Positions 10,239-39,424 of a DNA stretch of 64,000 bases are shown piece after piece (the stretch's first letter is position 1; the number at the start of each line of letters is the position of its first letter). The position numbers and the translations under genes were made by a program. Location of the stretch: contig JAJZQN010000019.1 in assembly GCA_021847605.1 (NCBI GenBank), forward strand, positions 485 to 64,484. Reading direction: 5' to 3'. The notes below the pieces were generated by a model. That model saw only the letters and a program-made list of their open reading frames with translations, had not been told where the DNA came from and searched no databases. The stretch comes from Pseudomonadota bacterium (lineage in GTDB: Bacteria > Pseudomonadota > Alphaproteobacteria > Sphingomonadales > Sphingomonadaceae).

Positions 10239-11753
10239 TTATCGCCCGGTGACGGCGATCATGACCGCGCCATGGGCCGGCACGCTGTAGCTGGCGGGCA
10301 AGACGGCGGCGGTCGATCCCGACCAGATATCCTCAACCCCCGCTATGCCTGCAAAGCCGGCGTCGGCGGCGGTCAGCGCCAGCGAGGCGGCTTGCGTCCC
10401 GCGATTGAACAGGGCCAGCGCAACGCGGCCGTCGGCCAAAGGCTTGGCCCAGATTTCCAGATCGCCCTGTTTGCGGATCGCCCTGCCCTGAACCCCGCGC
10501 GCGTCCTGATCGATCGCGATGACACGGCGGTTGGTCAGCATCGCCAGCGTTTCCGGGCTGGTTTCGCGCAGGTCATGGCCCATCATCAGCGGCGCGGCGG
10601 CCATCGCCCACAGGGTCATATGGGTGCGATATTCGTCCGCGCTCATGCCGCCATTGCCGATTTCCAGCATGTCGGGATCATTCCAGCCATGCGGGCCGGC
10701 ATGATCGGGATTGCCATTCTTGTCGAAGCCGATCTTCGCCATGGTCGGATAATCGTCGGTGATGTCGCCGGTGGTGCGCCAGAGCTGACCGCCGACGTCG
10801 CGGCCCCAACTGCCGACGTCGAAGCGGCCATATTCGCACAGGGAGAAGATGATCTGCCGTCCGGTCGCCTGCAACGCTGCGCCCATTTCATGATAGCTGC
10901 GCTTGACCGTGTCCGCATCGGCATAAAACCACTCGCCCGAACAGAGGTCATATTTCAGATAGTCGAAGCCCCAGTCGGCAAAGCTTTTCGCATCCTGCGC
11001 GACATGGCCATAGCTGCCCTCATAGCCGGCGCAGGTGCGGGGGCCTTGCGAGGAATAGATGCCGATCTTCAGCCCCTTGGCGTGGACATAGTCGGTCAGC
11101 GCCTTCATGTCCGGGAATTTGGCATTGGGGTGCAGCACGCCATTGGCGTCGCGCTGGCCCTGCCAGCCGTCGTCGATGTTGATATAGGTGTAGCCCGCGT
11201 CGCGTAGGCCGGACGACACCATCGCATCGGCCATGGCGCGGACCGTTTTATCATCAATATGTTCGGCGAACTTGTTCCAGCTGCTCCAGCCCATGGGCGG
11301 GGTGGCGGCGAGCTTGCTGGGAATGGGCTGGCCCAGCGGCGGCAGGGCGGCGAATTTGAAGGCGCGGGCCTTGGCGTCCTTCGCGCCGCCGCGATAGCCG
11401 GTGATCGCGACCTTACTCTCCCATATCTGCCCCTCCAGATGCGGCTTGCCGTCGGCGAGGGTGACGCTCCAGCTGCGGGTGGGATGATCGCGGTCGTTGA
11501 TATTGCGCGCTTCGAACAGCAATTTGCCGTCGGTGATGCGCGGGTTCAGCATCTCGACCGGGCCGTACCAGAGCGTCGTCACGCTGCCTTCGATTGTCGC
11601 GCCCTTGCTCTTCACCTGCATCATGGTGACGCCGGGGGTTGGCGGAGCATCATCGAACAGCCAGACGCCGTCAAAGGCGGTCCTGGCGCTGGCGGGGGCG
11701 GCGGCACATAGGGCGGTGGCGAGGGTCAGGCTCGTCAAAAGGGCGCGCGTCAT
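10239..11753 (-). CDS. GH27 alpha-galactosidase-like glycoside hydrolase (secreted)
   Basis: PPMGWSSWNKF...YINIDDGWQ and KLGIY...DYLKYDLC are GH27 signatures. Signal peptide present. The ATG at 11753 lies 6 nt after ggaggag (the track start at 11768 is less likely). Confidence 0.8.
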   Translation of the reverse strand: MTRALLTSLTLATALCAAAPASARTAFDGVWLFDDAPPTPGVTMMQVKSKGATIEGSVTTLWYGPVEMLNPRITDGKLLFEARNINDRDHPTRSWSVTLADGKPHLEGQIWESKVAITGYRGGAKDAKARAFKFAALPPLGQPIPSKLAATPPMGWSSWNKFAEHIDDKTVRAMADAMVSSGLRDAGYTYINIDDGWQGQRDANGVLHPNAKFPDMKALTDYVHAKGLKIGIYSSQGPRTCAGYEGSYGHVAQDAKSFADWGFDYLKYDLCSGEWFYADADTVKRSYHEMGAALQATGRQIIFSLCEYGRFDVGSWGRDVGGQLWRTTGDITDDYPTMAKIGFDKNGNPDHAGPHGWNDPDMLEIGNGGMSADEYRTHMTLWAMAAAPLMMGHDLRETSPETLAMLTNRRVIAIDQDARGVQGRAIRKQGDLEIWAKPLADGRVALALFNRGTQAASLALTAADAGFAGIAGVEDIWSGSTAAVLPASYSVPAHGAVMIAVTGR

Positions 11754-11809
11754 CGCGATCTCCTCCATGGGATCAAAAGGAAACGGGAAAGGGGTAGGAT
11801 GCGCCGCCG

Positions 11810-13225
11810 TCAGGCGGTGGCGGCATCCTGTCGGGCGTCGCTGCGGCTGCGGCTGTAGAGACAGTAGAAGAGCAGGCCGATGACGTTCCAGGCGCCGAAG
11901 CGAACCAGAGTCGTGTCCGGCAGGCTGAAGAGCAGATAGGCGCAGCCCAGGATCGTCAGCGTGCCCACGACATAAGGCTGGGGACAGCGGAACAGGCGGG
12001 GCAGTTCGGGCGATCGACGGCGCAGGATCATGAGGCAGGCGCCCACCGCCATGAAGGCGATCAGCGTACCGGCATTGGCCAGTTCGGCAATTTCATCGAG
12101 ACGGAAGATGCCGGCGACCAGCGCGATCGACAGGCCGGTCATCAGCGTGATGCGTGTCGGCGCGCCGGTGCGCGGGCTGATCTTGGCCAGGCTGCGTGGC
12201 AGCAGCCCGTCGCGCGCCATGACGAAGAAGACGCGGCTCTGGCCGTACATCATGACCAGGATGACCGAGGGCAAAGCGATGACGGCGGCCAGGGCGATCA
12301 GGTGCGCGGCGGTCGGCTGGCCCAGCTGACGCAGGACGAGGGCGAGCGGCTCGGGCGAATTGGCGAGCTGCTGGAAGGGCAGGGCGCCGATCGCGGCGAT
12401 GGCGACCGCCATGTAGATGAGCGTGCAGACCAGCATCGACCCGATGATGCCGATGGTGAGGTCACGGCCCGGATTCTTGGCTTCCTCCGCCGATGTGGCG
12501 ACGGCGTCGAAACCGTAGAAGGCGAAGAAGACGATGGCGGCGGCCGCCATTACGCCGCGCTTTTGCCCCTCAATTTCCGTGCTGGCAAAGCCATAGGGCA
12601 TGAAGGGTTCCAGATGGCCCGACTGGAAAGCGGGCAGCGCCATGGCGACGAAGATCGATAGCGCGACGAGCTTGATGATGACGAGGATGATGTTGAGCGT
12701 CGCGCTTTCGCGCGTGCCGGCGATCAGCATGCCCATCACGCCCAGCGCCACCAGCACGGCGGGCAGGTTGATGATGCCGCCGCCATGCGGCCCGACCAGC
12801 AGCATCGCGGGCAGATGGATGCCCGCCGATTGCAGCCAGCCCACCAGATAGCCCGACCAGCCGACCGCCACGGTCGAACAGGCGAGCGAATATTCCAGGA
12901 TCAGGCTCCATCCCACGATCCAGGCGATGGTTTCGCCCATTGCGGCATAGCTGAACGTATAGGCGCTGCCCGCCGCGGGGATCAAAGTCGCCATTTCGGC
13001 ATAGGCGAGCGCGGCGCAGGCGCAGACCGCGCCGGCAATGGCGAAGGCCAGGATCACGGCGGGACCGGCCCGTTCGGCGCCCACGCCGGTCAGCGTATAA
13101 ATGCCGGTGCCCACGATCGCGCCGACGCCCAGCGCGATCAGGTGCGGCCAGCTGAGGGTTTTGGCGAGGCTATGCCCGGACTCGCGCTGGGCGAGTTTTT
13201 CGATGGATTTGCGTGGTCCGAGCAT
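11810..13225 (-). CDS. APC-family amino-acid permease
   Basis: 471 aa with about 12 TM segments. The N-terminal GVGAIVGTGIY motif is typical of cationic/amino-acid permeases. Confidence 0.85.
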   Translation of the reverse strand: MLGPRKSIEKLAQRESGHSLAKTLSWPHLIALGVGAIVGTGIYTLTGVGAERAGPAVILAFAIAGAVCACAALAYAEMATLIPAAGSAYTFSYAAMGETIAWIVGWSLILEYSLACSTVAVGWSGYLVGWLQSAGIHLPAMLLVGPHGGGIINLPAVLVALGVMGMLIAGTRESATLNIILVIIKLVALSIFVAMALPAFQSGHLEPFMPYGFASTEIEGQKRGVMAAAAIVFFAFYGFDAVATSAEEAKNPGRDLTIGIIGSMLVCTLIYMAVAIAAIGALPFQQLANSPEPLALVLRQLGQPTAAHLIALAAVIALPSVILVMMYGQSRVFFVMARDGLLPRSLAKISPRTGAPTRITLMTGLSIALVAGIFRLDEIAELANAGTLIAFMAVGACLMILRRRSPELPRLFRCPQPYVVGTLTILGCAYLLFSLPDTTLVRFGAWNVIGLLFYCLYSRSRSDARQDAATA

Positions 13226-13246: not shown

Positions 13247-13903
13247 TCACTGAGTATGGCTGGCGGCGAAATGCGCGCGCAGATCGTCTAGTGTGCTGGC
13301 GATATGCTGGGTCAGCAGCGCCTGGACATCGTCCGCCTTGCCGGCGAGCCAGGCGTCGAGCAGGGCCTGATGCTCCAGATGGGCGCGATCGCCGCGTCCC
13401 GCCGGCGCCAGATGGGCCAGCACATAGCGTTCGGCCAACACTTCGAGGCGCTCGACTAACTGGGTGGTGAGCAGCCGACCGCCCGGCCGCACCAGCGCAA
13501 CGTGGAATTCGCGGTTGCGCACGGCGACGGCGTTCAGATCATCATTAGCGGCGGCGTCGAGCAGTTTGAAAGCGTCGAGCGCGGCGACCTTGTCCGCGTC
13601 CGTGATATGCTGGCAGGCGAAGGCGACGGCCGCCGGTTCGATCGCGAGGCGCAGCAGATAGATTTCCTCGGCCTGATCGGCCGACATCGGGCGCACGAAC
13701 CAGCCGCGATTGGCCTGGCTGGTGAGCAGCCCTTCATGCTCCAGTCGGGCCAGCGCCTCGCGCAGCGGAATCTTGCTGACGCCCAGTTCGGCGGCCAGCG
13801 CATCTTGCCGCACCGGCTCACGCTCCGGCAGCTTGCCCTCGACGATCCGTTCCCGGATCACTTCGAAAATGCGTTCGGCGAGGGTGCGGACGACGATTGT
13901 CAC
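13247..13903 (-). CDS. GntR-family transcriptional regulator (FCD type)
   Basis: N-terminal wHTH (LAAELGVSKIPLREALARLEHEGLL) plus a C-terminal FCD-like helical domain. Confidence 0.85.
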   Translation of the reverse strand: MTIVVRTLAERIFEVIRERIVEGKLPEREPVRQDALAAELGVSKIPLREALARLEHEGLLTSQANRGWFVRPMSADQAEEIYLLRLAIEPAAVAFACQHITDADKVAALDAFKLLDAAANDDLNAVAVRNREFHVALVRPGGRLLTTQLVERLEVLAERYVLAHLAPAGRGDRAHLEHQALLDAWLAGKADDVQALLTQHIASTLDDLRAHFAASHTQ

Positions 13904-14129: not shown

Positions 14130-14145
14130 ATAACGTATACGATAT
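14130..14145. promoter_or_regulatory. Operator-like palindrome ATAACGTATACGATAT (15/16 to consensus)
   Basis: Lies in the divergent region between the GntR gene (13903) and the FAD oxidoreductase gene (14172). One of five related sites in this locus. Confidence 0.65.
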
Positions 14146-14171: not shown

Positions 14172-15392
14172 GTGGGGCGTATAGCGATCATCGGAGGCGG
14201 CGTGGTGGGCCTGTCCACGGGCATAGCCTTGCTGGACGCGGGACAGGCGGTCGTGCTGGTCGATGACGATGATGCGGGCCAAGCCGCATCCTGGGGCAAT
14301 GCCGGTCATATTGCAGTGGAGCAGGTTGCGCCGCTGGCGTCTCTTTCGCTGTTGCGCAGCGTGCCGCGCCGGCTGTTCGTGCGGGGCGGCGCGCTGGATT
14401 TTCCATTGTCTGCGATCGGTACGTGGCTACCCTTTGGCCTGCGGCTGATGGCGGCGGCGCGCCCGGCGCGCTTCCGGCAGGGCAGCGATGCGTTGCGCGG
14501 ACTATTGGCGCGGGCGATGCCGGCGTGGGAGGCGCTGGTCGACCGGATCGGCGCACCTGATTTGCTGCGGCAGGATGGCCATTATGTGCAATGGAGCGAT
14601 GCTGATGTAGCGGCGGCCGGGCGCGCCGCATGGGAAGCGGCCGATATCGGCACGGCGCAGGTGGGGGACGTAAGCGCAGCGGACCTGTCCCGGCTGTCGG
14701 GCCTGACCAGTGCGCCGGCGGCGGGCGCGATCCGCTTTGCCGGCAGTGGCCAGATAAGCGATCTTGGCGCGCTGCGTCATGCGTTGCGGGCGGCCTTTGT
14801 CGCGCGGGGCGGTGAGATTGTCGGGCGCTGCGCCACGGCCATCCGTGACGGTGCGCGCGTTGTGGCACCGGGCATCGATGCCGACCGGGTCATCATCTGC
14901 GCCGGTGTCCGGTCCCGTCCGCTGATGGAAGCGCTGGGCCACAGGGCGCCGATGATCGCCGAGCGGGGCTATCATATCCGGGCCGATGCGACGGGCTGGC
15001 CAGCCGACCTGCCGCCGGTCGTCTATGAGGATCGATCGATGATCGTCACCCGCTATGCCGATTGCGTGCAGGCGGCGAGCTTCGTGGAGCTGGGGCGGGT
15101 CGATGCGCCCGCCGATCCGCGCAAATGGGACCGGCTGGAACGGCATGTGGCGGAACTGGGCCTGCCGGTCCGGGGACCGTTCACCCGCTGGATGGGGTGC
15201 CGGCCGACCCTGCCAGACTATCTGCCGGCGATCGGCCGATCGGACCGGGCGGACAATCTGTTTTACGCTTTTGGCCACCAGCATCTGGGGCTTACATTGG
15301 CGCCGATCACGGCGCGACTGATGGCGGCAATCGTGACGGGGACGGAGCCGGCGCTGCCGGTCGCCCCCTTCGACATTGGGCGTTTCGCATAA
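14172..15392 (+). CDS. FAD-dependent oxidoreductase, D-amino-acid dehydrogenase family (candidate cis-4-hydroxy-D-proline dehydrogenase)
   Basis: IAIIGGGVVGLSTG dinucleotide-binding motif at the N-terminus. The GTG at 14172 lies 5 nt after tggag. The ATG at 14052 would add about 40 residues and would translate through the operator. Confidence 0.75.
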   Translation: MGRIAIIGGGVVGLSTGIALLDAGQAVVLVDDDDAGQAASWGNAGHIAVEQVAPLASLSLLRSVPRRLFVRGGALDFPLSAIGTWLPFGLRLMAAARPARFRQGSDALRGLLARAMPAWEALVDRIGAPDLLRQDGHYVQWSDADVAAAGRAAWEAADIGTAQVGDVSAADLSRLSGLTSAPAAGAIRFAGSGQISDLGALRHALRAAFVARGGEIVGRCATAIRDGARVVAPGIDADRVIICAGVRSRPLMEALGHRAPMIAERGYHIRADATGWPADLPPVVYEDRSMIVTRYADCVQAASFVELGRVDAPADPRKWDRLERHVAELGLPVRGPFTRWMGCRPTLPDYLPAIGRSDRADNLFYAFGHQHLGLTLAPITARLMAAIVTGTEPALPVAPFDIGRFA

Positions 15393-15402
15393 GGATGACG
15401 AT

Positions 15403-16593
15403 ATGATTGGTGGATCGAGCGCGCAGGCCGAACTGGAGCGGCTGCACCCATGGGCGGATCGCGCCGCGCCGATTGCGGCGGCGGAGCGGCTGGCCCGGAT
15501 CGCGCGGGCGCAGTTACTGGCCGACGGGATTGGCGCGCAGGCGCTGCTGGTCAATGCCGGGGCGTCGCTGCGCTATTTTTCGGCGGTGCCATGGGGACAG
15601 AGCGAGCGGCTGGTGGCGATGCTGCTGCTGCCGGGGCGTGACCCGATCATCATCTGCCCGCATTTCGAGATCGGCACGCTAGAGGCGGATCTGGCGATCG
15701 ATGCGGAAATCCGGTCCTGGCAGGAGGATGAAGATCCTGTGGCGCTGGTGATCGATGCGCTGGGGCAAGCGGGCGTGCGGACGGTGGCGGTGGACCCGGA
15801 GCTGCCGTTCCACTTTGCCGAACGGCTGCGGCAGGGGACGAGCGCCAAGCTGGTCGATGCGACGCCGGTCATCAGCGGATGCCGGATGGTGAAGTCCGCC
15901 GCCGAACTGGCGCTGATGCAGCAGGCCAAATCCATGACGTTGCAGGTGCATGCGGCCGCCGCGCGCATATTGCGCCCCGGCATAAGGGCGAGCGAAGTGA
16001 CGCGCTTCATCGATGAAGCGCATCGCCGGCTGGGCGCGAAAGGCTCCAGCTTCTGCATCGTCCAGTTTGGCGAGGCGACCGCCTATCCCCATGGCCTGCC
16101 GGGCGACCGCGCGCTGGAGGAGGGGCAATTGGTGCTGATCGACACGGGCTGCACGATCGGGGGATACCATTCGGATATCACCCGCACCTATGCCTTTGGC
16201 GCGGTGGATGATCAGGCGCGCGATATCTGGGCGCTGGAGAAGGAGGCGCAGCAGGCGGCGTTCGACGCGGTCATGCCCGGTGCGCCATGCGAGAGCGTGG
16301 ACGCGGCGGCGCGGGCGGTGCTGGAGAAAGCGGGGCTTGGTCCCGACTATCGCTTGCCCGGCCTGCCGCATCGCACTGGCCATGGCATCGGCCTTTCGAT
16401 CCATGAGCCGGCCTATCTGGTGCGGGGGGACAGGACGCCGCTGCAACCGGGCATGTGCTTTTCCAACGAGCCGATGATCGTCGTGCCGCAGCGTTTCGGC
16501 ATCCGGCTGGAGGATCATTTTTACGTGACCCCGAGCGGCGCGCAGTGGTTCACCCAGCCGCAGGGGACGATCGATCGGCCTTTTGCCGAATAG
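15403..16593 (+). CDS. M24-family Xaa-Pro dipeptidase/aminopeptidase
   Basis: Pita-bread fold motifs (LIDTGC..GGYHSDITRT, HRTGHGIGLSIHE, FSNEP, RLED). The ATG at 15403 lies after aaggatga. Confidence 0.85.
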   Translation: MIGGSSAQAELERLHPWADRAAPIAAAERLARIARAQLLADGIGAQALLVNAGASLRYFSAVPWGQSERLVAMLLLPGRDPIIICPHFEIGTLEADLAIDAEIRSWQEDEDPVALVIDALGQAGVRTVAVDPELPFHFAERLRQGTSAKLVDATPVISGCRMVKSAAELALMQQAKSMTLQVHAAAARILRPGIRASEVTRFIDEAHRRLGAKGSSFCIVQFGEATAYPHGLPGDRALEEGQLVLIDTGCTIGGYHSDITRTYAFGAVDDQARDIWALEKEAQQAAFDAVMPGAPCESVDAAARAVLEKAGLGPDYRLPGLPHRTGHGIGLSIHEPAYLVRGDRTPLQPGMCFSNEPMIVVPQRFGIRLEDHFYVTPSGAQWFTQPQGTIDRPFAE

Positions 16594-25304: not shown

Positions 25305-26054
25305 ATGACGGGCATGGATGAAGACAGGCAGGACAAGGATGGCGCAGCCTTTGCGCCGCTGGCGACCGGGCGGCTGCACCATGCCGTGGCGCAGCGGTTG
25401 GGCACGCAGATTGCCGGGGGCGTGCTGCCGGTGGGTCATGTGTTCGCCGCCGAAGTGGACCATGCCGAATCGCTGGGCGTATCACGATCGGTGTTGCGCG
25501 AAGCTTTTCGCATCCTGACCGCCAAGGGGTTGGTCAGTAGCCGGCCCAAGGCGGGGACGCGCGTCAACGAGCGGCGCAAATGGAGCATGCTGGACCCCGA
25601 TGTGCTGGCCTGGCAAATCCAGTCCGAACCGAGCGACGCCTTTTTGCGCGACCTGTTCGAACTGCGCATGATGGTGGAGCCGCAGGCGGCGGAAATGGCG
25701 GCGCAGCGGCGCAGCGACGAGCAGTTGGCGGACATGGCCAATGCGCTGGACGCCATGGAGCGCTATACGCTGGCGACCGAAAAGGGGCGGGCGGCGGACC
25801 AGAGGTTCCACGGATTGCTGATGGAGGCGGCGCAGAATGAACTGCTTTATGGCCTGTCCAGTTCGATCATGTCGGCGATCGCATGGACCACGGCAGCCAA
25901 GCAGCGGGTCCAGGAAGCGCCGCGCGATCCCATGCCCGAACATCGCGCGCTCTATCGGGAAATCGAGGCGCGCAATCCGCGTCAGGCGCAGAAAGCCATG
26001 CGCGTGCTGATCGAGCTGGCGCTGGCGGACATGGAGGTGGCGTTGCGGCGCTGA
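25305..26054 (+). CDS. GntR/FadR-family transcriptional regulator (FCD domain)
   Basis: wHTH LGVSRSVLREAFRILTAKGLV plus an FCD domain. Confidence 0.85.
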   Translation: MTGMDEDRQDKDGAAFAPLATGRLHHAVAQRLGTQIAGGVLPVGHVFAAEVDHAESLGVSRSVLREAFRILTAKGLVSSRPKAGTRVNERRKWSMLDPDVLAWQIQSEPSDAFLRDLFELRMMVEPQAAEMAAQRRSDEQLADMANALDAMERYTLATEKGRAADQRFHGLLMEAAQNELLYGLSSSIMSAIAWTTAAKQRVQEAPRDPMPEHRALYREIEARNPRQAQKAMRVLIELALADMEVALRR

Positions 26055-26106: not shown

Positions 26107-26126
26107 TATCGTATAGTATACGATAT
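26107..26126. promoter_or_regulatory. Operator-like palindrome TATCGTATA-G-TATACGATA(T)
   Basis: 9-1-9 perfect inverted repeat, 20 nt upstream of the GH127 start. It can also be read as two overlapping consensus-like 16-mers. Confidence 0.65.
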
Positions 26127-32855: not shown

Positions 32856-32887
32856 GACAACGACGTAGACACTATGCGCGAAGTCGA

Positions 32888-32918
32888 GGGGCGTGGCCGG
32901 TGGCCGCGCCCCTTTCTT
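32888..32918 (+). terminator. Rho-independent terminator
   Basis: GGGGCG-tggccggtggccg-CGCCCC followed by TTTCTT. It lies 33 nt after the GH43 stop. Confidence 0.65.
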
Positions 32919-33010: not shown

Positions 33011-33026
33011 AGTTGGTATACGATAT
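33011..33026. promoter_or_regulatory. Operator-like site AGTTGGTATACGATAT (13/16)
   Basis: Lies 37 nt upstream of the TonB-receptor start. A TTGACT -35-like hexamer sits about 17-19 nt upstream, so the site would overlap a -10 region. Confidence 0.6.
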
Positions 33027-33062: not shown

Positions 33063-35798
33063 ATGAAGTCACGTGCGGTTCTGAACATAACGGCGGCTTG
33101 GTCCGTCCTTGCTCTCGCCTCCCTGCCGGGCATTGCCCATGCGCAGGAAGCGGCCGAAACCCCGGCCGTGGCGGAGGGCGCAAAGCCCGATATCATCGTG
33201 ACCGGCGTGCGCGGCAGCGTGCAGGCGGCGGCTACCAAGAAAAAGAACAGCAAGCAGATCGTGGATTCGGTCGTGGCTGAAGACGCCGGCAAATTGCCGG
33301 ACAATAATGTTCCCGAAGCATTGTCCCGCGTGACCGGCGTGCAGATCAGCCGCGAACGCGGTCAGGGGCAGAGCATCAACATTCGCGGCCTTAGCCAGGT
33401 GCAGACCACGGTCAACGGCAACAACGTCAATCTGGGCACCGACCGGTCGATCAGCCTGGCCGACATTCCCGCCGAATTGCTGAAGTCGGTCGATGTCTAC
33501 AAGACGCGCACCGCCGATCAGGTGGAAGGCGGCATCGCCGGCACCGTCAACGTCGAACTGCGCCGTCCGCTGGACCTGAAAAAGGGCCTGACCGTCGCGG
33601 GCAGCGTGCGTGGCGCCTATGACGAGTTTGCGGAGAAGACCAGCCCCTATGCCAGCCTGTTGCTGGGCGAACGGTTCGACACCGGCATCGGCGAAATGGG
33701 CTTTCTGCTCAACGGCAGCTGGACCAAGACCTATTATCAGGAAAATTATGTCGAGAGCGAGTCGCCCGACACCGTCTGCTGCGAAGGCGACGCGAACAGC
33801 CCGCTCAACAATGTGCCGGCGCAATATCGCAATGTCGTGATCCCCTATCGCACCCAATATGGCACCGAAAGCGGCTATGTGACGCGCCCGTCGCTGAGCG
33901 GCGTGTTCCAGTGGAAACCCTCCGACAAATTGGAGTTCATTCTGGAAGGCAGCTATATCGGGTCGAAGGAGCGTCGCTCCATCGACAAGATGTGGACGCT
34001 CAACCGCGAATGGAACACCCAGTTCAGCGGCATCGAACTGATGCCCGACGGTCAGACGATCAAGAAGCTGACCATTTCCAACCCGAACGGCGTGCCGGCC
34101 TATATCGAGGGGACGTACAATACGCTGAAGCGGGACCTGTACACCACCAATTTCGAAACCAACTGGCGCCCGAGCGACCGCGCGCTGCTGCATTTCAGCA
34201 CGCAATATAGCTGGTCCAAGGACAGCTATTATTATGTGCAGCAAATCCTGCGGCCCTATAACCTCCAGTCGGCGACGATCGATTTCGTGTCGGACGCCTA
34301 TTCGCGCCCGATCCCGTCGATCAGCTTCAACGGCGTCGACCTGAATGACGTCACCCAATATGGCGTCAACCGTTTTCAGGATAATGCCGGCATTTCCAAG
34401 AATAAGGAATTTGCCAGCCAGTTGGACCTGACGCTGGAGTTGAGTGACAAGAGCCTGCTGCGGTCGTTCCAGACCGGCATTCGCTACAACCGCCGCGATG
34501 TCGATCGTTACTATGGCTATCGTGACGGCTTCCCCCGCGTGAATGGCGTGGATGCGCCGCTGACCGCCTTCCCCGGCGGTGATCAGGCGTCGCTGATCGG
34601 GCCGGATCTGGCGGGATCGCCGCAATGGTATCGCATCCCCGGCAAGGCGCTGCTGGACAGCATCGATGCGGTGCGCGCCTATATCCAGGCGACTGATCCG
34701 GGCAATGCCGTCCGCTTCTCCAGCGAATTGCCGCCCAGCGATCAGGGCCAGACCTTCACATCGGTTGAAAACACCTTCGCGGCCTATGCGCAGATCAACT
34801 ATGGTTTCGACGTCGGCTTCCCGGTCGACGGCGTGGTCGGCCTGCGCGCGGTCAACACCTGGGGCAGCTCGACCAGCTTCCAATATCGCATCGGTGCGGC
34901 GGCGGACGGCTATCCGCTGATCATCGAGGAAAGCTCGGGTCGTGGCAACTTCATGGATTATCTACCCAGCGTTACCGCAACGCTGCATTTCGATCCCAAG
35001 ACGCAGTTGCGCCTGTCCTACACCACCAACGTCTCGCGCCCCAGCTTCTATGACCTGCGGCCTTTCTTCTTCGTCGATCCCAATGCGGCCAATCCGCGCG
35101 TCGACGCCGGCAACCCGGACCTGAAGGCGCAGCGCGAATGGTCGATCGACGCGAGCCTGGAACATTATTTCGGTCGCGCCGGTTCGGCATCGGTCGCGGG
35201 CTATTATAAGAAGGCGACCAACTGGACCTATTATAGCAACGAGATCGTCGGCGATCTGGCGGAATATGGTCTGCCCGGCCGCAGCGGTTCGGTGGCGCAG
35301 CTGCGCAATGCGGGCGATGGCGAATTTTACGGCGTCGAAGCGCAGGTTCAGAGCTTCTTCGACTTCCTGCCGGGCTTCTGGAAGAATTTCGGCGCCAGCC
35401 TGAACGTGACCCGCATTTTGCAGGCGCGCGTCGAATATCCCTATCCCGAGGATTTCCCCGGTGCGTTCGATTCGGTCGATACGTCGAAATGGACCGCCAA
35501 CGCGGCGCTCTATTATGACACGCCCAAGTTCAGCACGCGCGTCGCCTTCAACTATCGTTCGCCCTATCGCCTGTTCGTGTGGACCGACAATCCCGCCTAT
35601 AGCTGGTATAACGACACCACCTATCGTCTGGACGCGGCGGTCAACTATACGCCGGTCAAGTTCATGACGCTGTCGATCGAAGGCACCAACCTGACCGGAA
35701 ACGACCCCTATCGTTACTTCGGCAAGGAAAATATCCTGCCGCTGGGCGTGCGCACCATGGCGCGCACTGTGCAGGGCAGCGTCCGCTTCCGCTTCTGA
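33063..35798 (+). CDS. TonB-dependent receptor
   Basis: 911 aa with a signal peptide. Plug motifs (IIVTGVRGS..., DAGKLPDNNVPEALSRVTGVQISR, IRGLSQ) and a C-terminal barrel ending in RF. Confidence 0.9.
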   Translation: MKSRAVLNITAAWSVLALASLPGIAHAQEAAETPAVAEGAKPDIIVTGVRGSVQAAATKKKNSKQIVDSVVAEDAGKLPDNNVPEALSRVTGVQISRERGQGQSINIRGLSQVQTTVNGNNVNLGTDRSISLADIPAELLKSVDVYKTRTADQVEGGIAGTVNVELRRPLDLKKGLTVAGSVRGAYDEFAEKTSPYASLLLGERFDTGIGEMGFLLNGSWTKTYYQENYVESESPDTVCCEGDANSPLNNVPAQYRNVVIPYRTQYGTESGYVTRPSLSGVFQWKPSDKLEFILEGSYIGSKERRSIDKMWTLNREWNTQFSGIELMPDGQTIKKLTISNPNGVPAYIEGTYNTLKRDLYTTNFETNWRPSDRALLHFSTQYSWSKDSYYYVQQILRPYNLQSATIDFVSDAYSRPIPSISFNGVDLNDVTQYGVNRFQDNAGISKNKEFASQLDLTLELSDKSLLRSFQTGIRYNRRDVDRYYGYRDGFPRVNGVDAPLTAFPGGDQASLIGPDLAGSPQWYRIPGKALLDSIDAVRAYIQATDPGNAVRFSSELPPSDQGQTFTSVENTFAAYAQINYGFDVGFPVDGVVGLRAVNTWGSSTSFQYRIGAAADGYPLIIEESSGRGNFMDYLPSVTATLHFDPKTQLRLSYTTNVSRPSFYDLRPFFFVDPNAANPRVDAGNPDLKAQREWSIDASLEHYFGRAGSASVAGYYKKATNWTYYSNEIVGDLAEYGLPGRSGSVAQLRNAGDGEFYGVEAQVQSFFDFLPGFWKNFGASLNVTRILQARVEYPYPEDFPGAFDSVDTSKWTANAALYYDTPKFSTRVAFNYRSPYRLFVWTDNPAYSWYNDTTYRLDAAVNYTPVKFMTLSIEGTNLTGNDPYRYFGKENILPLGVRTMARTVQGSVRFRF

Positions 35799-35864: not shown

Positions 35865-35876
35865 GGGGGGCAGAGC

Positions 35877-37450: not shown

Positions 37451-37466
37451 ATATCGTATACGATAT
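37451..37466. promoter_or_regulatory. Perfect 16-bp palindrome ATATCGTATACGATAT (operator consensus)
   Basis: Lies 33 nt upstream of the DHDPS-like gene, in an AT-rich stretch. Confidence 0.7.
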
Positions 37467-37498
37467 TTATATCAGCAGAAAAGGCAGGAAGAACGAAT

Positions 37499-38413
37499 AT
37501 GGCAATTGGTTGGAAGGGCGTGTTCCCGGCGGTGACGACGCAGCTGCGCGAGGATCTGTCGATCGACCTCGCCGATACGCAGCGCGTCGTTGACGATCTG
37601 GTCAAGGACGGTGTGACCGGCGTCATTGCCCTGGGTACGGTGGGTGAGAATAACTCGCTGGACTATGACGAGAAGGTGTCGGTCCTGTCGGCCATCGTGG
37701 AAGTGGTGGACGGCCGCGTGCCGGTGATTACCGGCGTGTCGGAATATGACACCCGCCGCGCGGTGCGCTATGCGCAGGCCGCCGAAAAGGCTGGCGCGGA
37801 CGGGCTGATGCTGTTGCCGCCGATGGTCTATGTCACCAAGCCGCATGAACTGGTCAATCATTTCAAGGGTGTGGCCGACCAGACCGGCCTGCCGATCATG
37901 CTGTACAACAACCCGCCGGCCTATCGCACGGTGATCGACCAGGAGGTTCTGACCGCCCTGATCGACGTCAAGAATATCGTCGCGGTCAAGGAATCGGCGC
38001 CCGACACCCGTCGCTTCACCGATTTCCGCAACGCCTTTGGCGATCGCTACACGCTGTTCGCGGGGCTGGACGATGTCGCGCTGGAAGGGCTGTATCTGGG
38101 CGCGCAGGGCTGGGTGTCGGGCCTGACCAACGCCTTCCCCAAGGAATCGGTGGAACTGGTCCGCGCATTTGAGCGGGGCGACCATGCCAAGGCGATGGAA
38201 ATTTATCGCTGGTTCATGCCGCTGCTGCATCTGGATGCCGAACATGATCTGGTCCAGTCGATCAAGCTGGCCGAGCAGGTCATGGGCCGTGGGTCCGAGC
38301 GGGTGCTGCCGCCGCGCTATGTGCTGCAGGGCGAGCGCCGCGCCGAAGTGATCGCGATGGTCGAAAAGGCCGCTGCGACCCGGCCGGACCTGTCGATCGC
38401 GGCTGCGGCCTGA
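37499..38413 (+). CDS. DapA/DHDPS-family lyase (candidate pyrroline-4-hydroxy-2-carboxylate deaminase)
   Basis: 304 aa. Motifs GVIALGTVGE and IVAVKES (Schiff-base Lys context). Sits next to the epimerase gene. Confidence 0.8.
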   Translation: MAIGWKGVFPAVTTQLREDLSIDLADTQRVVDDLVKDGVTGVIALGTVGENNSLDYDEKVSVLSAIVEVVDGRVPVITGVSEYDTRRAVRYAQAAEKAGADGLMLLPPMVYVTKPHELVNHFKGVADQTGLPIMLYNNPPAYRTVIDQEVLTALIDVKNIVAVKESAPDTRRFTDFRNAFGDRYTLFAGLDDVALEGLYLGAQGWVSGLTNAFPKESVELVRAFERGDHAKAMEIYRWFMPLLHLDAEHDLVQSIKLAEQVMGRGSERVLPPRYVLQGERRAEVIAMVEKAAATRPDLSIAAAA

Positions 38414-38425
38414 TACAGGGTGGCG

Positions 38426-39424
38426 ATGCGTCACACCTTCTTTTGCATCGATGGCCATACGGCCGGAAACCCCGTCCGCCTGGTCGCGGGCGGGGCGCCG
38501 CTGCTCAAGGGCGCGTCCATGTCGGAACGGCGTCAGGATTTCCTGAACCGTTTCGACTGGATCCGCACCGGCCTGTGCTTCGAACCGCGCGGGCATGACA
38601 TGATGTCGGGCGGCTTCCTCTATCCGCCCTGCGATCCGCAGAACGACATTGGCATCCTGTTCATCGAGACGAGCGGATGCCTGCCCATGTGCGGGCATGG
38701 CACGATCGGCATGGTGACGTTCGGGCTGGAGCATGGACTGATCCAGCCGGCGACGCCGGGGCGGTTGAAGGTCGAGGTGCCGGCCGGCGTGATCGACATC
38801 GCCTATGAGACGGAAGGGCAGAAGGTGACGGCGGTGCGCATCACCAATGTCCCGGCCTATGTCGCGGCGAAAGGGATCGCAGTCGATGTCGAAGGGATTG
38901 GGCCGCTGTCGATCGATGTGTCCTATGGCGGCAATTATTACGCCATCGTGGAGCCGCAGGGCGCCTATACCGGGCTGGACGATATGGGCGCGGCGCAGTT
39001 GATTGAACTCAGCGGTCGCATTCGCGAGGCGGTGCGGGCGCAATATGAGCCGGTCCATCCACTCGATCCGACGATCCGGGGGGTGAGCCATATCCTGTGG
39101 GCGGATAAGCCCAAGGGCGACGACGCTGACGGACGCAACGCCGTTTTCTATGGCGACAAGGCGATCGACCGCAGCCCGTGCGGCACCGGAACGTCGGCAC
39201 GGCTGGCGCATCTGGCGGCGACGGGACGGCTGAAGGTCGGCGAGCGCTTCGTGCATCAAAGCTATATTTGCAGCCGCTTCATCGGGCGGGTGGAAGAAGA
39301 GGTGATGCTGGGCGATCAGCCCGCGATCATCCCGTCGATCGAGGGATCGGCGGTGGCGACCGGCTTCAACACCATCTGGATCGATCGTGCCGATCCCTTT
39401 TGGGCGGGGTTCCAGGTGACGTAA
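38426..39424 (+). CDS. Proline-racemase-family enzyme with Cys/Cys catalytic pair (candidate 4-hydroxyproline 2-epimerase)
   Basis: IDGHTAGNPVRLV, LPMCGHGTIG and DRSPCGTGTSARLA. Both catalytic positions are Cys. The ATG at 38426 is preferred over the GTG at 38420. Confidence 0.8.
   Translation: MRHTFFCIDGHTAGNPVRLVAGGAPLLKGASMSERRQDFLNRFDWIRTGLCFEPRGHDMMSGGFLYPPCDPQNDIGILFIETSGCLPMCGHGTIGMVTFGLEHGLIQPATPGRLKVEVPAGVIDIAYETEGQKVTAVRITNVPAYVAAKGIAVDVEGIGPLSIDVSYGGNYYAIVEPQGAYTGLDDMGAAQLIELSGRIREAVRAQYEPVHPLDPTIRGVSHILWADKPKGDDADGRNAVFYGDKAIDRSPCGTGTSARLAHLAATGRLKVGERFVHQSYICSRFIGRVEEEVMLGDQPAIIPSIEGSAVATGFNTIWIDRADPFWAGFQVT

What the first reader, a model, noticed from the sequence alone, without database searches (positions are those of the whole stretch)
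10239..39424. About 29-kb TonB-receptor-linked locus that looks dedicated to plant hydroxyproline-rich glycoproteins (extensin-type)
**Gene content.**
- Glycosidases: GH127 (HypBA1-type beta-L-arabinofuranosidase, with the Glu/Cys3 motif visible), GH43 with a discoidin-type CBM, and GH27 alpha-galactosidase.
- Peptidases: an S9 DPP-IV-like X-Pro peptidase, an M24 Xaa-Pro dipeptidase and a DUF885 HExxGH protein.
- Transporters: a POT peptide transporter, an APC permease and a TonB receptor.
- Hydroxyproline catabolism: a Cys/Cys epimerase, an FAD D-amino-acid-type dehydrogenase, a DHDPS-like deaminase and an Ldh_2 reductase.

**Why this points to extensins.** From established knowledge, extensins carry Hyp-O-(beta-L-Araf)1-4 chains capped by alpha-Araf, and Ser-O-alpha-Gal. 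In bifidobacteria and Xanthomonas these chains are removed by GH43, GH121 and GH127. Every predicted activity here maps onto one bond of that substrate or onto the released Hyp-rich peptides.

A single proteobacterial locus that couples deglycosylation, proteolysis, uptake and Hyp catabolism under one operator is not something I know to be described. An alpha-ketoglutarate-semialdehyde dehydrogenase is not seen in the window.
Basis: inference. Interest (0 to 1): 0.7.

Follow-up and report, generated by a model that had tools for sequence, protein, structure and literature searches.

The report
Extensin-glycoprotein and hydroxyproline utilisation regulon, Sphingobium
A soil/plant bacterium (Sphingobium) carries about 20 genes behind one shared DNA switch that look built to cut up plant cell-wall extensin-type glycoproteins, strip their sugars, import the peptides and burn the hydroxyproline; the individual parts are known elsewhere, but this complete package appears not to have been described.

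Summary
**Observation:** confirmed.

**Corrections:**
- The "GH127" enzyme is GH146, the family of Xanthomonas XeHypBA1.
- The DUF885 motif is HESAPGH.
- The host is Sphingobium, an alphaproteobacterium.

- An Svx/AvrXca-family metalloprotease. Its Pectobacterium relative was shown in 2026 to cleave extensin specifically.
- A 913-aa DUF5695 protein.
- Two GntR/FCD regulators.

**New evidence:**
- One palindromic operator (ATATCGTATACGATAT) sits at all five promoter regions. Its core gives 7 matches against 0.16 expected.
- Its 9-mer occurs 183 times in 81 related loci against about 1 expected, almost always upstream of the same genes.
- GH146, Ldh_2, DUF885, DUF5695 and DHDPS/HypE stay together across Sphingobium, Novosphingobium, Sphingomonas and Caulobacter despite rearrangements.

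**Best reading:** a HypR-type hydroxyproline regulon extended upstream to plant hydroxyproline-rich glycoproteins. It scavenges the peptide and Hyp rather than the sugar.

**Unknowns:**
- No GH121 is present. DUF5695, whose fold resembles PL27, may fill that step.
- The roles of DUF885 and Ldh_2 are unclear.
- No substrate has been tested.

**Novelty:** a new variant of known kinds.

The parts
10239..11768 (-). GH27 alpha-galactosidase, exported. Candidate for removing Gal-alpha-Ser.
   Evidence: Pfam Melibiase_2, E 1e-68. Best PDB hits are plant alpha-galactosidases 6f4c and 1uas, E 1e-100 and 1e-94. Signal peptide present. Sits inside Hyp gene clusters in Sphingomonas Leaf412 and next to GH43 in Caulobacter.
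11810..13225 (-). APC-family amino-acid permease. Candidate Hyp/Pro importer.
   Evidence: Pfam AA_permease_2, E 2e-57. Found next to the GntR1/DHDPS homologues in 25 of 81 loci.
13247..13903 (-). GntR/FCD regulator 1. The more likely binder of the shared operator (HypR-like).
   Evidence: Pfam GntR + FCD. It is the only one of the two regulators seen within +/-10 kb of the GH146 gene in the Sphingomonas loci that still carry the operator.
14130..14145 (.). Operator O1, ATAACGTATACGATAT, in the divergent GntR1-APC-GH27 / DAO-M24 promoter region.
   Evidence: One mismatch to the perfect palindrome.
14172..15392 (+). FAD-dependent D-amino-acid-type dehydrogenase. Candidate cis-4-D-Hyp dehydrogenase.
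   Evidence: Pfam DAO, E 4e-46. The GTG start at 14172, preceded by GGAG, lies downstream of O1.
15376..16593 (+). M24 Xaa-Pro dipeptidase-type peptidase, cytoplasmic.
   Evidence: Pfam Creatinase_N + Peptidase_M24. NCBIfam PepQ-type hits fall below the equivalog cutoffs.
16597..18087 (-). POT/PTR2 di/tripeptide:H+ symporter.
   Evidence: Pfam PTR2, E 2e-63. TIGR00924, 355 bits against a cutoff of 130.
18092..20044 (-). Svx/AvrXca-family gluzincin metalloprotease (DUF6055), exported via a twin-arginine N-terminus. Candidate extensin endopeptidase.
   Evidence: NF040510, 771 bits against a cutoff of 625, aligned over positions 17-601 of the 601-position model. HELTH motif at residue 190. Literature.
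20044..22785 (-). DUF5695 protein (913 aa), exported. Beta-sandwich + (alpha/alpha)6-like + beta-sandwich architecture; unknown glycan-cleaving enzyme.
   Evidence: Pfam DUF5695, 1267 bits. Gene call of 913 aa. No PDB or NCBIfam sequence match. Model pLDDT 68; best fold match is PL27 BACCELL_00875, E 4e-18, TM 0.65. Co-located with GH146 in 63 of 81 loci.
22797..25157 (-). S9 DPP-IV-type serine peptidase, exported.
   Evidence: Pfam DPPIV_N + Peptidase_S9. GGSAG at residue 640. Signal peptide present.
25232..25242 (.). Operator O2 (TTATACGATAT: one good half-site, degenerate partner) in the divergent S9 / GntR2 promoter region.
   Evidence: Overlaps a -10-like TATAAT on the minus strand. Conserved about 70-137 nt upstream of the GntR2 gene in 22 loci.
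25305..26054 (+). GntR/FCD regulator 2. Role unknown.
   Evidence: Pfam GntR + FCD. Only about 30% identical to regulator 1, over a 99-residue stretch that starts in the DNA-binding domain.
26107..26126 (.). Operator O3, TATCGTATAgTATACGATAT, overlapping the -10 of a TTGACA-16-TATCGT promoter.
   Evidence: Found 26-40 nt upstream of GH146 in most of the 52 loci that have it.
26146..28515 (+). GH146 beta-L-arabinofuranosidase with a C-terminal DUF6805 jelly-roll and a Tat-type signal. Candidate Araf-beta-Hyp hydrolase.
   Evidence: Pfam PF07944 + PF20736 + PF20620. BT0349 (GH146) E 3e-142 against HypBA1 (GH127) E 6e-14. E349/C351/C419/C420 conserved.
28512..29537 (+). Ldh_2 oxidoreductase, cytoplasmic. 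Candidate Delta1-pyrroline-2-carboxylate reductase (LhpD/HypS type).
   Evidence: Pfam Ldh_2, E 9e-95. DNA is 75.6% identical to P. aeruginosa lhpD. Literature. Co-located with GH146 in 72 of 81 loci.
29534..31306 (+). DUF885 protein, exported, HESAPGH motif. Candidate zinc peptidase.
   Evidence: Pfam DUF885, E 3e-151. PDB homologues have unknown function. Weak fold hits to M32, M2 and M3 peptidases. Co-located with GH146 in 75 of 81 loci.
31275..32855 (+). GH43 alpha-L-arabinofuranosidase-type enzyme with a discoidin-like C-terminal domain, exported. Candidate remover of the alpha-1,3-Araf cap.
   Evidence: Pfam. Best PDB hit is CjAbf43A, 3qed, E 1e-50. The C-terminal domain matches the HypBA2 model, E 1e-8. 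526 aa against 528 aa for XeHypAA.
32886..32914 (+). Intrinsic-terminator-like hairpin ending the GH146-Ldh_2-DUF885-GH43 operon.
   Evidence: 13-pair stem followed by a T-rich tail.
33011..33026 (.). Operator O4, AGTTGGTATACGATAT, upstream of the TonB receptor.
   Evidence: Conserved upstream of the receptor in 23 loci.
33063..35798 (+). TonB-dependent outer-membrane receptor of the Xanthomonas/Caulobacter subfamily.
   Evidence: Pfam Plug + beta-barrel. TIGR01782, 529 bits against a cutoff of 310. Terminator at 35821-35856.
37451..37466 (.). Operator O5, the perfect palindrome ATATCGTATACGATAT (extends to 37450-37467), upstream of DHDPS-HypE.
   Evidence: Conserved at the DHDPS promoter in 37 loci.
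37499..38413 (+). DHDPS-family enzyme. Candidate Delta1-pyrroline-4-hydroxy-2-carboxylate deaminase.
   Evidence: Pfam DHDPS, E 3e-58. ATG at 37499 with an AGGAAG ribosome-binding site. Found in 55 of 81 loci.
38420..39424 (+). 4-hydroxyproline 2-epimerase.
   Evidence: NF010578, 544 bits against a cutoff of 376. C91 and C254.

Best explanation
[quoted passage not shown] The nutrient it targets is the Hyp-rich peptide, not the sugar.

**Proposed sequence of steps** (all steps are inferred from families, context and published enzymology of relatives; none was assayed here)
1. The exported Svx-type metalloprotease cuts glycosylated extensin.
2. GH43 removes the alpha-1,3-Araf cap.
3. An unidentified enzyme, DUF5695 being the best candidate, removes the beta-1,2-linked Araf residues.
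4. GH146 removes the Hyp-proximal beta-Araf.
5. GH27 removes Gal-alpha-Ser.
6. The TonB receptor takes (glyco)peptides into the periplasm, where the S9 DPP-IV-type peptidase and perhaps DUF885 shorten them.
7. POT imports di/tripeptides and the APC permease imports free Hyp.
8. The M24 prolidase releases Hyp.
9. HypE, the DAO-type dehydrogenase and the DHDPS-type deaminase convert Hyp to alpha-ketoglutarate semialdehyde. A dehydrogenase encoded elsewhere oxidises that.
10. Ldh_2 reduces pyrroline-2-carboxylate to proline.

**Regulation.** A GntR/FCD repressor, probably regulator 1 and HypR-like, binds ATATCGTATACGATAT over or next to the -10 element of five promoters. Presumably Hyp or a derivative releases it.
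For: **Gene content**
- Family assignments.
- The arabinofuranosidase is GH146, not GH127, with an intact Zn site. The Xanthomonas enzyme that prefers Araf-beta-Hyp is GH146.
- The Xanthomonas GH146/GH43/GH121 trio degrades Ara4-Hyp and lies next to a prolyl-oligopeptidase pseudogene.
- The Svx family score is above the equivalog cutoff. Pectobacterium Svx cleaves extensin specifically and needs its C-terminal domain for this.

**Operator**
- The 11-mer core at <=1 mismatch gives 7 matches against 0.16 expected, with 0 of 100 shuffles reaching that.
- The 16-mer at <=3 mismatches gives 4 matches against 0.02 expected.
- The sites overlap promoter-like hexamers.
- In 81 related loci (1.70 Mb) the exact 9-mer occurs 183 times against 1.07 expected. 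It lies upstream of GH146 in 52 loci, DHDPS in 37, the TonB receptor in 23 and GntR2/S9 in 22.

**Synteny within +/-10 kb of GH146**
- DUF885 75, Ldh_2 72, DUF5695 63, DHDPS 55, S9 43 and GH43 40 of 81 loci, in differing gene orders, in Sphingobium, Novosphingobium, Stakelama, Croceibacterium, Sphingomonas and Caulobacter.

**Localisation and precedent**
- All hydrolases carry export signals. The catabolic enzymes do not.
- There is no sugar transporter and no arabinose or galactose catabolic gene in the locus.
- A HypR regulon extended upstream to collagenases, prolyl peptidases, a POT permease and a TonB receptor is known in Shewanella.
- Ldh_2 relatives next to Hyp genes reduce proline ketimine, and the DNA matches P. 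aeruginosa lhpD.
Against: - No activity, induction or growth data exist for this locus.
- Orthology of the GH146 and GH43 proteins to XeHypBA1 and XeHypAA could not be tested, because no Xanthomonas sequence could be obtained.
- The closest solved relatives act on pectic arabinan/RG-I: BT0349 and CjAbf43A.
- No GH121 beta-L-arabinobiosidase is present, so one step rests on an unknown protein.
- The best fold match of DUF5695 is an arabinogalactan-protein lyase (PL27), not an arabinofuranosidase.
- On plasmid pR1a the five-gene core sits next to an RG-I cluster with no Hyp genes within 15 kb.
- No alpha-ketoglutarate-semialdehyde dehydrogenase is in the locus.
- Which of the two regulators binds the operator is not established.
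- Only the 80 closest of 448 genomes that carry a relative were examined.
Confidence: 0.72

Rival explanations
1. The glycosidases serve pectic arabinan / rhamnogalacturonan-I or arabinogalactan-protein side chains. They are only neighbours of, or loosely co-regulated with, a generic hydroxyproline/proline-peptide catabolic cluster.
For: - The best solved relative of the GH146 protein is BT0349 from the Bacteroides RG-I locus.
- The best solved relative of the GH43 protein is the arabinan-specific CjAbf43A.
- The best fold match of DUF5695 is the AGP-capping Rha-GlcA lyase PL27.
- On plasmid pR1a the core is adjacent to an RG lyase / acetylesterase / GH28 / GH88 cluster.
- Some Sphingomonas loci place a GH2 beta-galactosidase-like gene under the same operator.
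Against: - The same operator precedes the glycosidase operon and the Hyp-catabolic operons, here and in dozens of genomes.
- On pR1a the operator is found only at the DPP-IV/GH146 promoter, not at the RG-I genes.
- The locus has no endo-arabinanase, no galactanase, no uronate-processing enzyme, no sugar transporter and no sugar catabolism.
- An extensin-specific type of protease is embedded in the same operon as DUF5695.
- The characterised Ara-Hyp enzyme of Xanthomonas is also GH146.
Confidence: 0.13
2. The locus targets animal or microbial Hyp/Pro-rich peptides (collagen, gelatin) as in the Shewanella HypR regulon. The glycosidases are accessory or irrelevant.
For: - The HypR regulon precedent includes peptidases, a POT permease and a TonB receptor.
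- The S9, M24, POT and APC proteins and the Hyp pathway would work on any Hyp peptide.
- Ldh_2 fits the trans-3-Hyp branch, and that residue is typical of collagen.
Against: - No collagenase is present.
- Three or four plant-glycan-type hydrolases and an Svx-type protease are core, operator-controlled members.
- Two of the plasmid-borne homologous loci come from plant-associated isolates (tomato rhizosphere, Chinese cabbage) and one from tap water.
Confidence: 0.07
3. The system is mainly a plant-interaction or virulence device that breaches or remodels the extensin barrier, as proposed for Svx/AvrXca and the Xanthomonas enzymes. It is not a nutritional pathway.
For: - Svx and AvrXca are virulence/avirulence factors.
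- The Xanthomonas hypBA2-AA operon is HrpX-regulated and induced in planta.
Against: - Here the genes share a catabolic-type GntR operator with uptake and Hyp-degradation genes.
- Sphingobium is not known as a pathogen (own knowledge).
- Xanthomonas triple mutants remained fully pathogenic.
Confidence: 0.05

Closest known systems
Xanthomonas euvesicatoria XeHypBA1 (XCV2724, GH146) / XeHypAA (XCV2728, GH43) / XeHypBA2 (XCV2729, GH121) cluster (Nakamura 2018, PMC6085000)
   Same: - Exported GH146 and GH43 enzymes of nearly identical length: 789 against 791 aa, and 526 against 528 aa.
- A prolyl-peptidase gene lies nearby.
- The substrate class is Hyp-linked arabinofuranosides of extensin and lectins.
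   Different: - This locus has no GH121.
- It adds an Svx-type protease, DUF5695, DUF885, GH27, a TonB receptor, peptide and amino-acid importers and the Hyp catabolic enzymes, all under one GntR operator.
- The Xanthomonas operon is HrpX/PIP-box controlled, and its authors could not say what the enzymes are for.
HypR (GntR-family) hydroxyproline regulon of Proteobacteria, including the collagen-oriented Shewanella version (Leyn 2016, PMC5343134; White 2012)
   Same: - A GntR repressor with a palindromic operator.
- Core genes hypE, hypO, hypD and hypS (Ldh_2).
- In some taxa the regulon extends upstream to secreted proteases, prolyl peptidases, a POT permease and a TonB receptor.
   Different: - The upstream extension here is plant-specific: GH146, GH43, GH27, an Svx-type extensinase and DUF5695. 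There are no collagenases.
- No hypH (aKGSA dehydrogenase) is in the locus.
- Orthology of either regulator to S. meliloti HypR was not tested.
Svx / AvrXca proteases of Pectobacterium, Dickeya and Xanthomonas (PMC9266454, PMC10815107, PMC13164431)
   Same: - Same family above the equivalog cutoff.
- HExxH gluzincin motif.
- C-terminal acyltransferase-like beta-helix domain.
- Export signal.
   Different: - In the pathogens it is treated as a stand-alone virulence factor.
- Here it is the third gene of a catabolic operon (S9-DUF5695-Svx-POT) in a non-pathogen.
- That placement is independent genomic-context support for the extensin substrate and points to a nutritional origin.
Bifidobacterium longum hypBA1-hypBA2-hypAA cluster with its ABC transporter (PMC7263609)
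   Same: Stepwise removal of Hyp-linked arabinofuranosides from dietary HRGPs.
   Different: - Bifidobacterium imports beta-Ara2 and consumes the sugar.
- This locus has no sugar importer or sugar catabolism. It imports peptides and Hyp instead.
- The enzyme families differ: GH127 + GH121 there, GH146 + DUF5695 here.
TonB-dependent-transporter 'CUT' loci of Xanthomonas/Caulobacter and Bacteroidetes PULs
   Same: A TonB receptor of the Xanth-Caul subfamily (TIGR01782) clustered with exported hydrolases, an inner-membrane transporter and a regulator.
   Different: The cargo is a glycoprotein. Catabolism is directed at the amino-acid moiety.

Membership tests
GH146 beta-L-arabinofuranosidase | Sequence closer to characterised GH146 members than to GH127 | tested here: met
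   BT0349 (5opj) E 3e-142 and Bll3HypBA1 (8k7x) E 9e-55, against GH127 HypBA1 (3wkw) E 6e-14.
GH146 beta-L-arabinofuranosidase | Zn site Glu-Cys3 with catalytic Cys | tested here: met
   E349, C351, C419 and C420 align with the BT0349 motifs and are invariant in 11 homologues.
GH146 beta-L-arabinofuranosidase | Hydrolysis of Araf-beta-Hyp (XeHypBA1-like specificity) | not testable with these tools
   No Xanthomonas sequence could be obtained. The specificity is inferred from context only.
   GH127 structures score 54-96 bits against 479 bits for GH146 BT0349.
GH121 beta-L-arabinobiosidase | A homologue of HypBA2 in the locus | tested here: not met
   - No PDB hit for DUF5695, by sequence or by profile.
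- No NCBIfam HypBA2 hit apart from the CBM-like domain of the GH43 protein.
- No GH121/HypBA2 structure appears among the 50 fold matches listed.
Svx/AvrXca metalloprotease family | Score above the curated equivalog cutoff over the full length, including the C-terminal acyltransferase-like domain | tested here: met
   NF040510, 771 bits (cutoff 625). Residues 71-644 align to model positions 17-601 of 601. A weak LpxD-like hit covers residues 512-582.
Svx/AvrXca metalloprotease family | HExxH zinc motif with a downstream Glu | tested here: met
   HELTH at residue 190, with the Glu of 'FESHANW' 26 residues downstream.
Svx/AvrXca metalloprotease family | Specific cleavage of extensin | not testable with these tools
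   Shown only for P. atrosepticum Svx.
HypR-type hydroxyproline regulon | GntR-family regulator plus a palindromic GT..AC operator upstream of the hyp catabolic genes | tested here: met
   Two GntR/FCD genes. T-C-G-T-A-T-A-C-G-A palindromes lie upstream of DAO-M24 and DHDPS-HypE.
HypR-type hydroxyproline regulon | Regulator orthologous to S. meliloti HypR and released by Hyp | not tested
   No HypR reference sequence or model was available. The NCBIfam hits are generic.
trans-4-hydroxy-L-proline catabolic pathway | 4-Hyp 2-epimerase with a Cys/Cys pair | tested here: met
   NF010578, 544 bits (cutoff 376). C91 and C254.
trans-4-hydroxy-L-proline catabolic pathway | D-Hyp dehydrogenase and Pyr4H2C deaminase | tested here: inconclusive
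   The DAO and DHDPS superfamilies are present and operator-linked. No equivalog-level model matched.
trans-4-hydroxy-L-proline catabolic pathway | alpha-Ketoglutarate-semialdehyde dehydrogenase in the cluster | tested here: not met
   No Aldedh domain among the ORFs scanned in the window. No recurrent extra gene cluster of that size within +/-10 kb in the 81 loci, but only the largest clusters were inspected by eye.
PL27 L-Rha-alpha-1,4-GlcA lyase (for DUF5695) | N-terminal beta-sandwich + (alpha/alpha)6 barrel fold and conserved catalytic residues | tested here: inconclusive
   The fold match is E 4e-18, TM 0.65, 15% identity, on a model of pLDDT 68. No significant sequence match. Catalytic residues were not compared.
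Zincin peptidase (clan MA; for DUF885) | HExxH-type zinc site on an M32/M3/M2-like fold | tested here: inconclusive
   The motif is HESAPGH, one residue longer than HExxxH. Fold hits to M32 carboxypeptidases are weak (E 0.014-0.2). The solved family members have no assigned function.
GH27 alpha-galactosidase | Closer to true alpha-galactosidases than to GH27 beta-L-arabinopyranosidases | tested here: met
   Plant alpha-galactosidases score E 1e-100 and 1e-94. SaArap27A (3a21) scores 2e-70 and Abp (4nx0) 2e-24.

The most novel reading that the evidence does not exclude
DUF5695 and DUF885 are two uncharacterised enzyme families whose native job is HRGP breakdown.

- **DUF5695** would be an (alpha/alpha)6 enzyme that removes the beta-1,2-linked arabinofuranosides from Hyp-Ara3/Ara2, so it would be a non-homologous replacement of GH121.
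- **DUF885** would be a periplasmic zinc peptidase for Hyp-rich peptides. In Novosphingobium it is physically fused through a membrane-spanning segment to the cytoplasmic Ldh_2 reductase.

Together with the Svx-type protease they would form a widespread 'extensin utilisation regulon' of Sphingomonadales and Caulobacterales. That would explain why Xanthomonas keeps Hyp-arabinoside enzymes that are dispensable for virulence, and it would give leaf and root commensals a private carbon/nitrogen source.
Probability: 0.3. Interest if true: 0.78.

Novelty: new variant of a known kind. Interest (0 to 1): 0.6.

Why it matters
- **An open question becomes testable.** Extensins and related HRGPs are major structural and defence proteins of plant walls, but how bacteria consume them is poorly mapped. 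The Xanthomonas study ended by asking why the bacterium has these enzymes at all, since it cannot use arabinose and the mutants stay virulent. This locus suggests an answer that can be tested: the sugars are removed to reach the Hyp-rich peptide.
- **Support for the Svx substrate.** The locus gives independent genomic-context support for the extensin specificity of Svx/AvrXca proteases and places that 'virulence factor' in a nutritional pathway of non-pathogens.
- **Leads for unknown families.** Two large families of unknown function, DUF5695 and DUF885, get concrete candidate substrates.
- **A tool for further work.** The operator is compact and easy to search for. It can be used to chart the regulon in plant-associated Sphingomonadales and Caulobacterales.

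Tried and rejected
1. **Getting the Xanthomonas sequences.**
   - The single genome-collection scan returned only the 80 closest loci, all Sphingomonadales/Caulobacter-type.
   - The 50%-cluster representative search followed by a cluster-name look-up gave only unnamed metagenome proteins or Bacteroidota names.
   - Orthology to XeHypBA1/XeHypAA therefore remains untested.
2. **DUF5695 as a diverged GH121.** There is no sequence or profile hit to any PDB chain, and no GH121/HypBA2 structure appears among the 50 fold matches listed.
3. **DUF885 as a proven peptidase.** Not supported beyond weak fold hints. A literature search found nothing functional.
4. **Pfam at E<=1 for the small secreted ORFs (35877-37411), orf326 and the 454-aa ORF at 45323.** Nothing usable came back.
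5. **A recurrent aldehyde dehydrogenase or GH121 gene in the 81 related loci.** None was seen among the largest recurrent gene clusters. The only recurrent extras were a second TonB receptor and a GH2 enzyme.
6. **Prior description of the integrated locus.** Four literature searches found none in the held library. This does not exclude papers outside it.
7. **The RG-I cluster on pR1a as part of the regulon.** Rejected, because no operator lies there.

Full report
**1. What is there**

The window is GC-rich (about 60-69% G+C).
- GH27
- an APC permease
- a DAO-type FAD oxidoreductase
- an M24 peptidase with a Creatinase_N domain
- a POT/PTR2 permease
- an S9 DPP-IV-type peptidase
- a PF07944 beta-L-arabinofuranosidase
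- Ldh_2
- DUF885
- GH43 with a weak discoidin-like domain
- a TonB-dependent receptor
- a DHDPS-family protein
- a proline-racemase-family protein

- two GntR/FCD regulators (13247-13903 and 25305-26054)
- a 650-aa DUF6055 protein (18092-20044)
- a DUF5695 protein (20044-22785; 913 aa in the gene call of an identical metagenome contig)

Boundaries:
- To the left lie a CLC channel and a separate TonB receptor.
- To the right lie a LysR gene, then a Tn3 transposase/resolvase and a conjugative type IV secretion cluster.

**2. Organism**

The arabinofuranosidase is 98% identical to those of Sphingobium sp. AP50 and S. rhizovicinum. 448 species genomes encode a relative. The best 80 are Sphingobium, Novosphingobium, Sphingomonas, Caulobacter and a few others. 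The window is therefore from a Sphingobium (Alphaproteobacteria), not a xanthomonad.

**3. Corrections to the family calls**

[quoted passage not shown] It matches GH146 Bll3HypBA1 at 9e-55, but GH127 HypBA1 only at 6e-14. The Glu-Cys3 zinc site is intact (E349, C351, C419, C420). This matters because XeHypBA1 of Xanthomonas euvesicatoria, the enzyme that acts predominantly on Araf-beta-Hyp, is now classed in GH146 (PMC10850190).
- *Epimerase.* It scores 544 bits on the NCBIfam 4-hydroxyproline epimerase equivalog (cutoff 376) and has the Cys91/Cys254 pair.
- *GH27.* It is closest to true alpha-galactosidases.
- *DUF885.* It carries HESAPGH, not HExxGH.
- *TonB receptor.* It belongs to the Xanthomonas/Caulobacter subfamily TIGR01782.

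**4.

- The DUF6055 protein is a full-length member of the Svx/AvrXca family (NF040510, 771 bits, cutoff 625).
- It has a HELTH zinc motif and the C-terminal beta-helix domain.
- For P. atrosepticum Svx, extensin was first proposed as substrate from docking only (PMC9266454).
- In 2026 the enzyme was shown to degrade a carrot extensin preparation, but not mucin or concanavalin A, and to need the C-terminal domain for this (PMC13164431).
- Those papers do not discuss gene neighbourhood ('neighbo', 'operon' and 'gene cluster' have no occurrence).
- Here the gene is the third of an S9-DUF5695-Svx-POT operon.

**5. One operator**

- A palindrome, ATATCGTATACGATAT, is perfect at 37451-37466 and has one mismatch at 14130-14145.
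- It is present as TATCGTATAgTATACGATAT at 26107-26126.
- It is present with one good half-site at 33011-33026 and at 25232-25242.
- The 11-mer core at <=1 mismatch gives 7 matches against 0.16 expected, with 0 of 100 shuffles reaching that. The 16-mer at <=3 mismatches gives 4 against 0.02.
- Two of the sites lie inside the long ORFs first taken for DAO and DHDPS. That moves their starts to GTG 14172 and ATG 37499, both with ribosome-binding sites.
- The sites overlap or abut promoter-like hexamers. Strong terminator-like hairpins follow GH43 and the TonB receptor.

The five sites cover these units:
- GntR1-APC-GH27 and, divergently, DAO-M24
- S9-DUF5695-Svx-POT and, divergently, GntR2
- GH146-Ldh_2-DUF885-GH43
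- the TonB receptor
- DHDPS-HypE

The sequence fits the GntR T.GT..AC.A type.

**6. Conservation**

- In the 81 related loci (1.70 Mb) the exact 9-mer TATACGATA occurs 183 times against 1.07 expected under a first-order model.
- Nearly all occurrences are in promoter regions of the same genes: GH146 in 52 loci, DHDPS in 37, the TonB receptor in 23, GntR2/S9 in 22 and DUF5695 in 8.
- tblastn of the window proteins finds the following within +/-10 kb of the GH146 gene: DUF885 in 75 of 81 loci, Ldh_2 in 72, DUF5695 in 63, DHDPS in 55, S9 in 43, GH43 in 40 and HypE in 37. The last figure is limited by the flank.
- Gene orders differ between genera. In S. paucimobilis the compact form is DUF5695 <> GH146-Ldh_2-DUF885-DHDPS-GntR1-APC. 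In Caulobacter GH27 follows GH43.
- Only GntR1 was seen within +/-10 kb in the Sphingomonas loci that still have the operator. The two regulators are only about 30% alike over a 99-residue stretch that starts in the DNA-binding domain. GntR1 is therefore the likelier binder. This is an inference.

**7. How it most likely works**

- All hydrolases have export signals. Ldh_2, DAO, DHDPS, HypE and M24 do not.
- There is no sugar transporter and no sugar catabolism.
- The published Xanthomonas scheme runs as follows: GH43 removes the alpha-1,3 cap of Ara4-Hyp, GH121 releases beta-Ara2 from Ara3-Hyp, and GH146 removes the last Araf. It maps onto GH43 and GH146 here. The two proteins have almost the same lengths as XeHypAA and XeHypBA1.
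- I infer an outside-in pathway: Svx-type endoproteolysis, deglycosylation (GH43, an unknown step, GH146, GH27), TonB-dependent uptake, periplasmic trimming (S9, perhaps DUF885), POT/APC import, cytoplasmic prolidase, then Hyp to alpha-ketoglutarate semialdehyde.
- The final dehydrogenase is not in the locus. From established knowledge (Watanabe and colleagues, Azospirillum), aKGSA is also the end of the oxidative L-arabinose pathway, so a shared enzyme encoded elsewhere is plausible. This was not tested.
- The design parallels the HypR regulon of Shewanella, which adds collagenases, prolyl peptidases, a POT permease and a TonB receptor to the hyp core (PMC5343134). Here the substrate would be the plant Hyp polymer instead of the animal one.

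**8. The unknowns**

*DUF5695*
- It has more than 2000 homologues.
- It has no NCBIfam model and no sequence or profile match in the PDB.
- Its AlphaFold model (pLDDT 68, pTM 0.67) shows N-terminal beta-sandwiches, an alpha-helical barrel-like domain and a C-terminal beta-sandwich.
- The only strong fold match is the PL27 L-Rha-alpha-1,4-GlcA lyase BACCELL_00875, which acts on arabinogalactan-protein caps (E 4e-18, TM 0.65, 15% identity). No GH121/HypBA2 structure appears among the 50 matches listed.
- It is therefore a glycan-cleaving-type protein of unknown chemistry.
- No GH121 is present and XeHypBA1-type enzymes prefer Ara-Hyp, so DUF5695 is the best candidate for removing the beta-1,2-linked residues. 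This is a guess.

*DUF885*
- It is the gene most tightly linked to GH146.
- Its solved relatives are structural-genomics entries without function.
- Its model gives only weak hits to M32, M2 and M3 zinc peptidases.

*Ldh_2*
- It matches P. aeruginosa lhpD at the DNA level.
- It belongs to the superfamily shown to reduce proline ketimine next to Hyp genes.
- Why it sits between two exported hydrolases is unexplained.
- It is also unexplained why it is fused in frame to DUF885, through the signal-peptide-like hydrophobic segment, in many Novosphingobium.

**9. Rivals**

- *Pectic arabinan / RG-I or AGP.* This reading draws on the nearest solved relatives (BT0349, CjAbf43A, PL27), on plasmid pR1a where the five-gene core abuts an RG-I cluster, and on a GH2 gene under the same operator in some Sphingomonas. 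Against it: the operator is absent from the RG-I genes, backbone-cleaving enzymes and sugar uptake are missing, and the Svx-type protease and the hyp genes share the switch.
- *Broader substrate class.* The GH2 finding does suggest that the regulon's target is 'Hyp-O-glycosylated proteins' with lineage-specific glycosidase sets, rather than extensin alone.
- *Collagen-type peptides* and *a purely virulence-related role* are less likely, for the reasons given under the rival explanations.

**10. Novelty and verdict**

- Each module is known: the Xanthomonas and Bifidobacterium Hyp-arabinoside enzymes, the Svx proteases, the HypR regulon, and TonB-receptor loci.
- In the held literature I found no description of them joined in one regulon, or of this operator. 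Absence from that library is not proof.
- I rate it a new variant of a known kind, with two conserved families of unknown function as the most novel content.
- Confidence that this is a single HRGP/Hyp-glycopeptide utilisation regulon is about 0.7. Confidence in the individual step assignments is lower.

Noticed in passing
window 41641-58996: There is a Tn3-family transposase (41641-44592), a resolvase (44652-45326) and a conjugative type IV secretion set: a VirD4 fragment, VirB11, VirB10/TrbI, VirB9, VirB8, VirB6/TrbL, VirB4, an SLT lytic transglycosylase and a Toprim/DUF7146 protein. The locus therefore borders a mobile or plasmid-like segment. Homologous loci lie on large plasmids or chromids in Novosphingobium sp. 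RL4, Sphingomonas sp. R1, S. hankookensis and S. parapaucimobilis.
   Followed up: partly
proteins P0306, P0310, P0311, P0314, P0316, P0317, P0322, P0323, P0343 (Novosphingobium); window 28512-31306: Ldh_2 and DUF885 overlap here by ATGA. In many Novosphingobium they are one in-frame protein of 936-947 aa. In it the DUF885 signal-peptide-like hydrophobic stretch becomes an internal, probably membrane-spanning, linker.
   Followed up: partly
window 35877-37411: Three small exported ORFs lie between the TonB receptor terminator and operator O5. orfX1 (189 aa) and orfX2 (179 aa) are paralogues (35% identity, E 2e-31) with no Pfam match. orfX3 (about 132 aa, Cys-rich) gives only a faint DUF6491 hit. 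They are found only in the Sphingobium and one Novosphingobium loci, and no operator lies directly upstream.
   Followed up: partly
L037, L039, L047, L052 (Sphingomonas), about 1600-7200: The same operator half-site (ATATCGTATA) precedes a different TonB receptor (about 1030 aa). That receptor is followed by a GH2 beta-galactosidase-like gene (about 1036 aa), so the glycosidase content of the regulon varies by lineage.
   Followed up: partly
L082 (Sphingomonas sp. R1 plasmid pR1a, tomato rhizosphere) 1-14645: The DUF5695-DPPIV <> GH146-Ldh-DUF885 core lies directly next to a rhamnogalacturonan-I cluster: a TonB receptor, RG lyase, RG acetylesterase, a GH28-related gene, rhaM, a beta-galactosidase and GH88. 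No hyp genes lie within 15 kb, and the operator occurs only in the core's divergent promoter.
   Followed up: yes
window 31275-32855, residues 393-512 of the GH43 protein: The C-terminal discoidin-like domain matches positions 1508-1640 of the NCBIfam model for B. longum HypBA2 (E 1e-8). This may be a binding module shared among enzymes that act on Hyp-arabinosides.
   Followed up: no
window 2278-3390 and 5301-7658: A LytS-type histidine kinase (His_kinase + HATPase_c) and a second TonB-dependent receptor lie upstream of the locus. Neither has the operator, so they are not part of the regulon.
   Followed up: partly
window 13904-14171 and 40344-40445: The 10-mer GACAGCATGA (CATGCTGTCA on the other strand) occurs both in the GH146 promoter region (26086-26096, overlapping its -35 TTGACA) and in the LysR/orf326 divergent region (40376-40386). 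With only two copies this may be chance.
   Followed up: no
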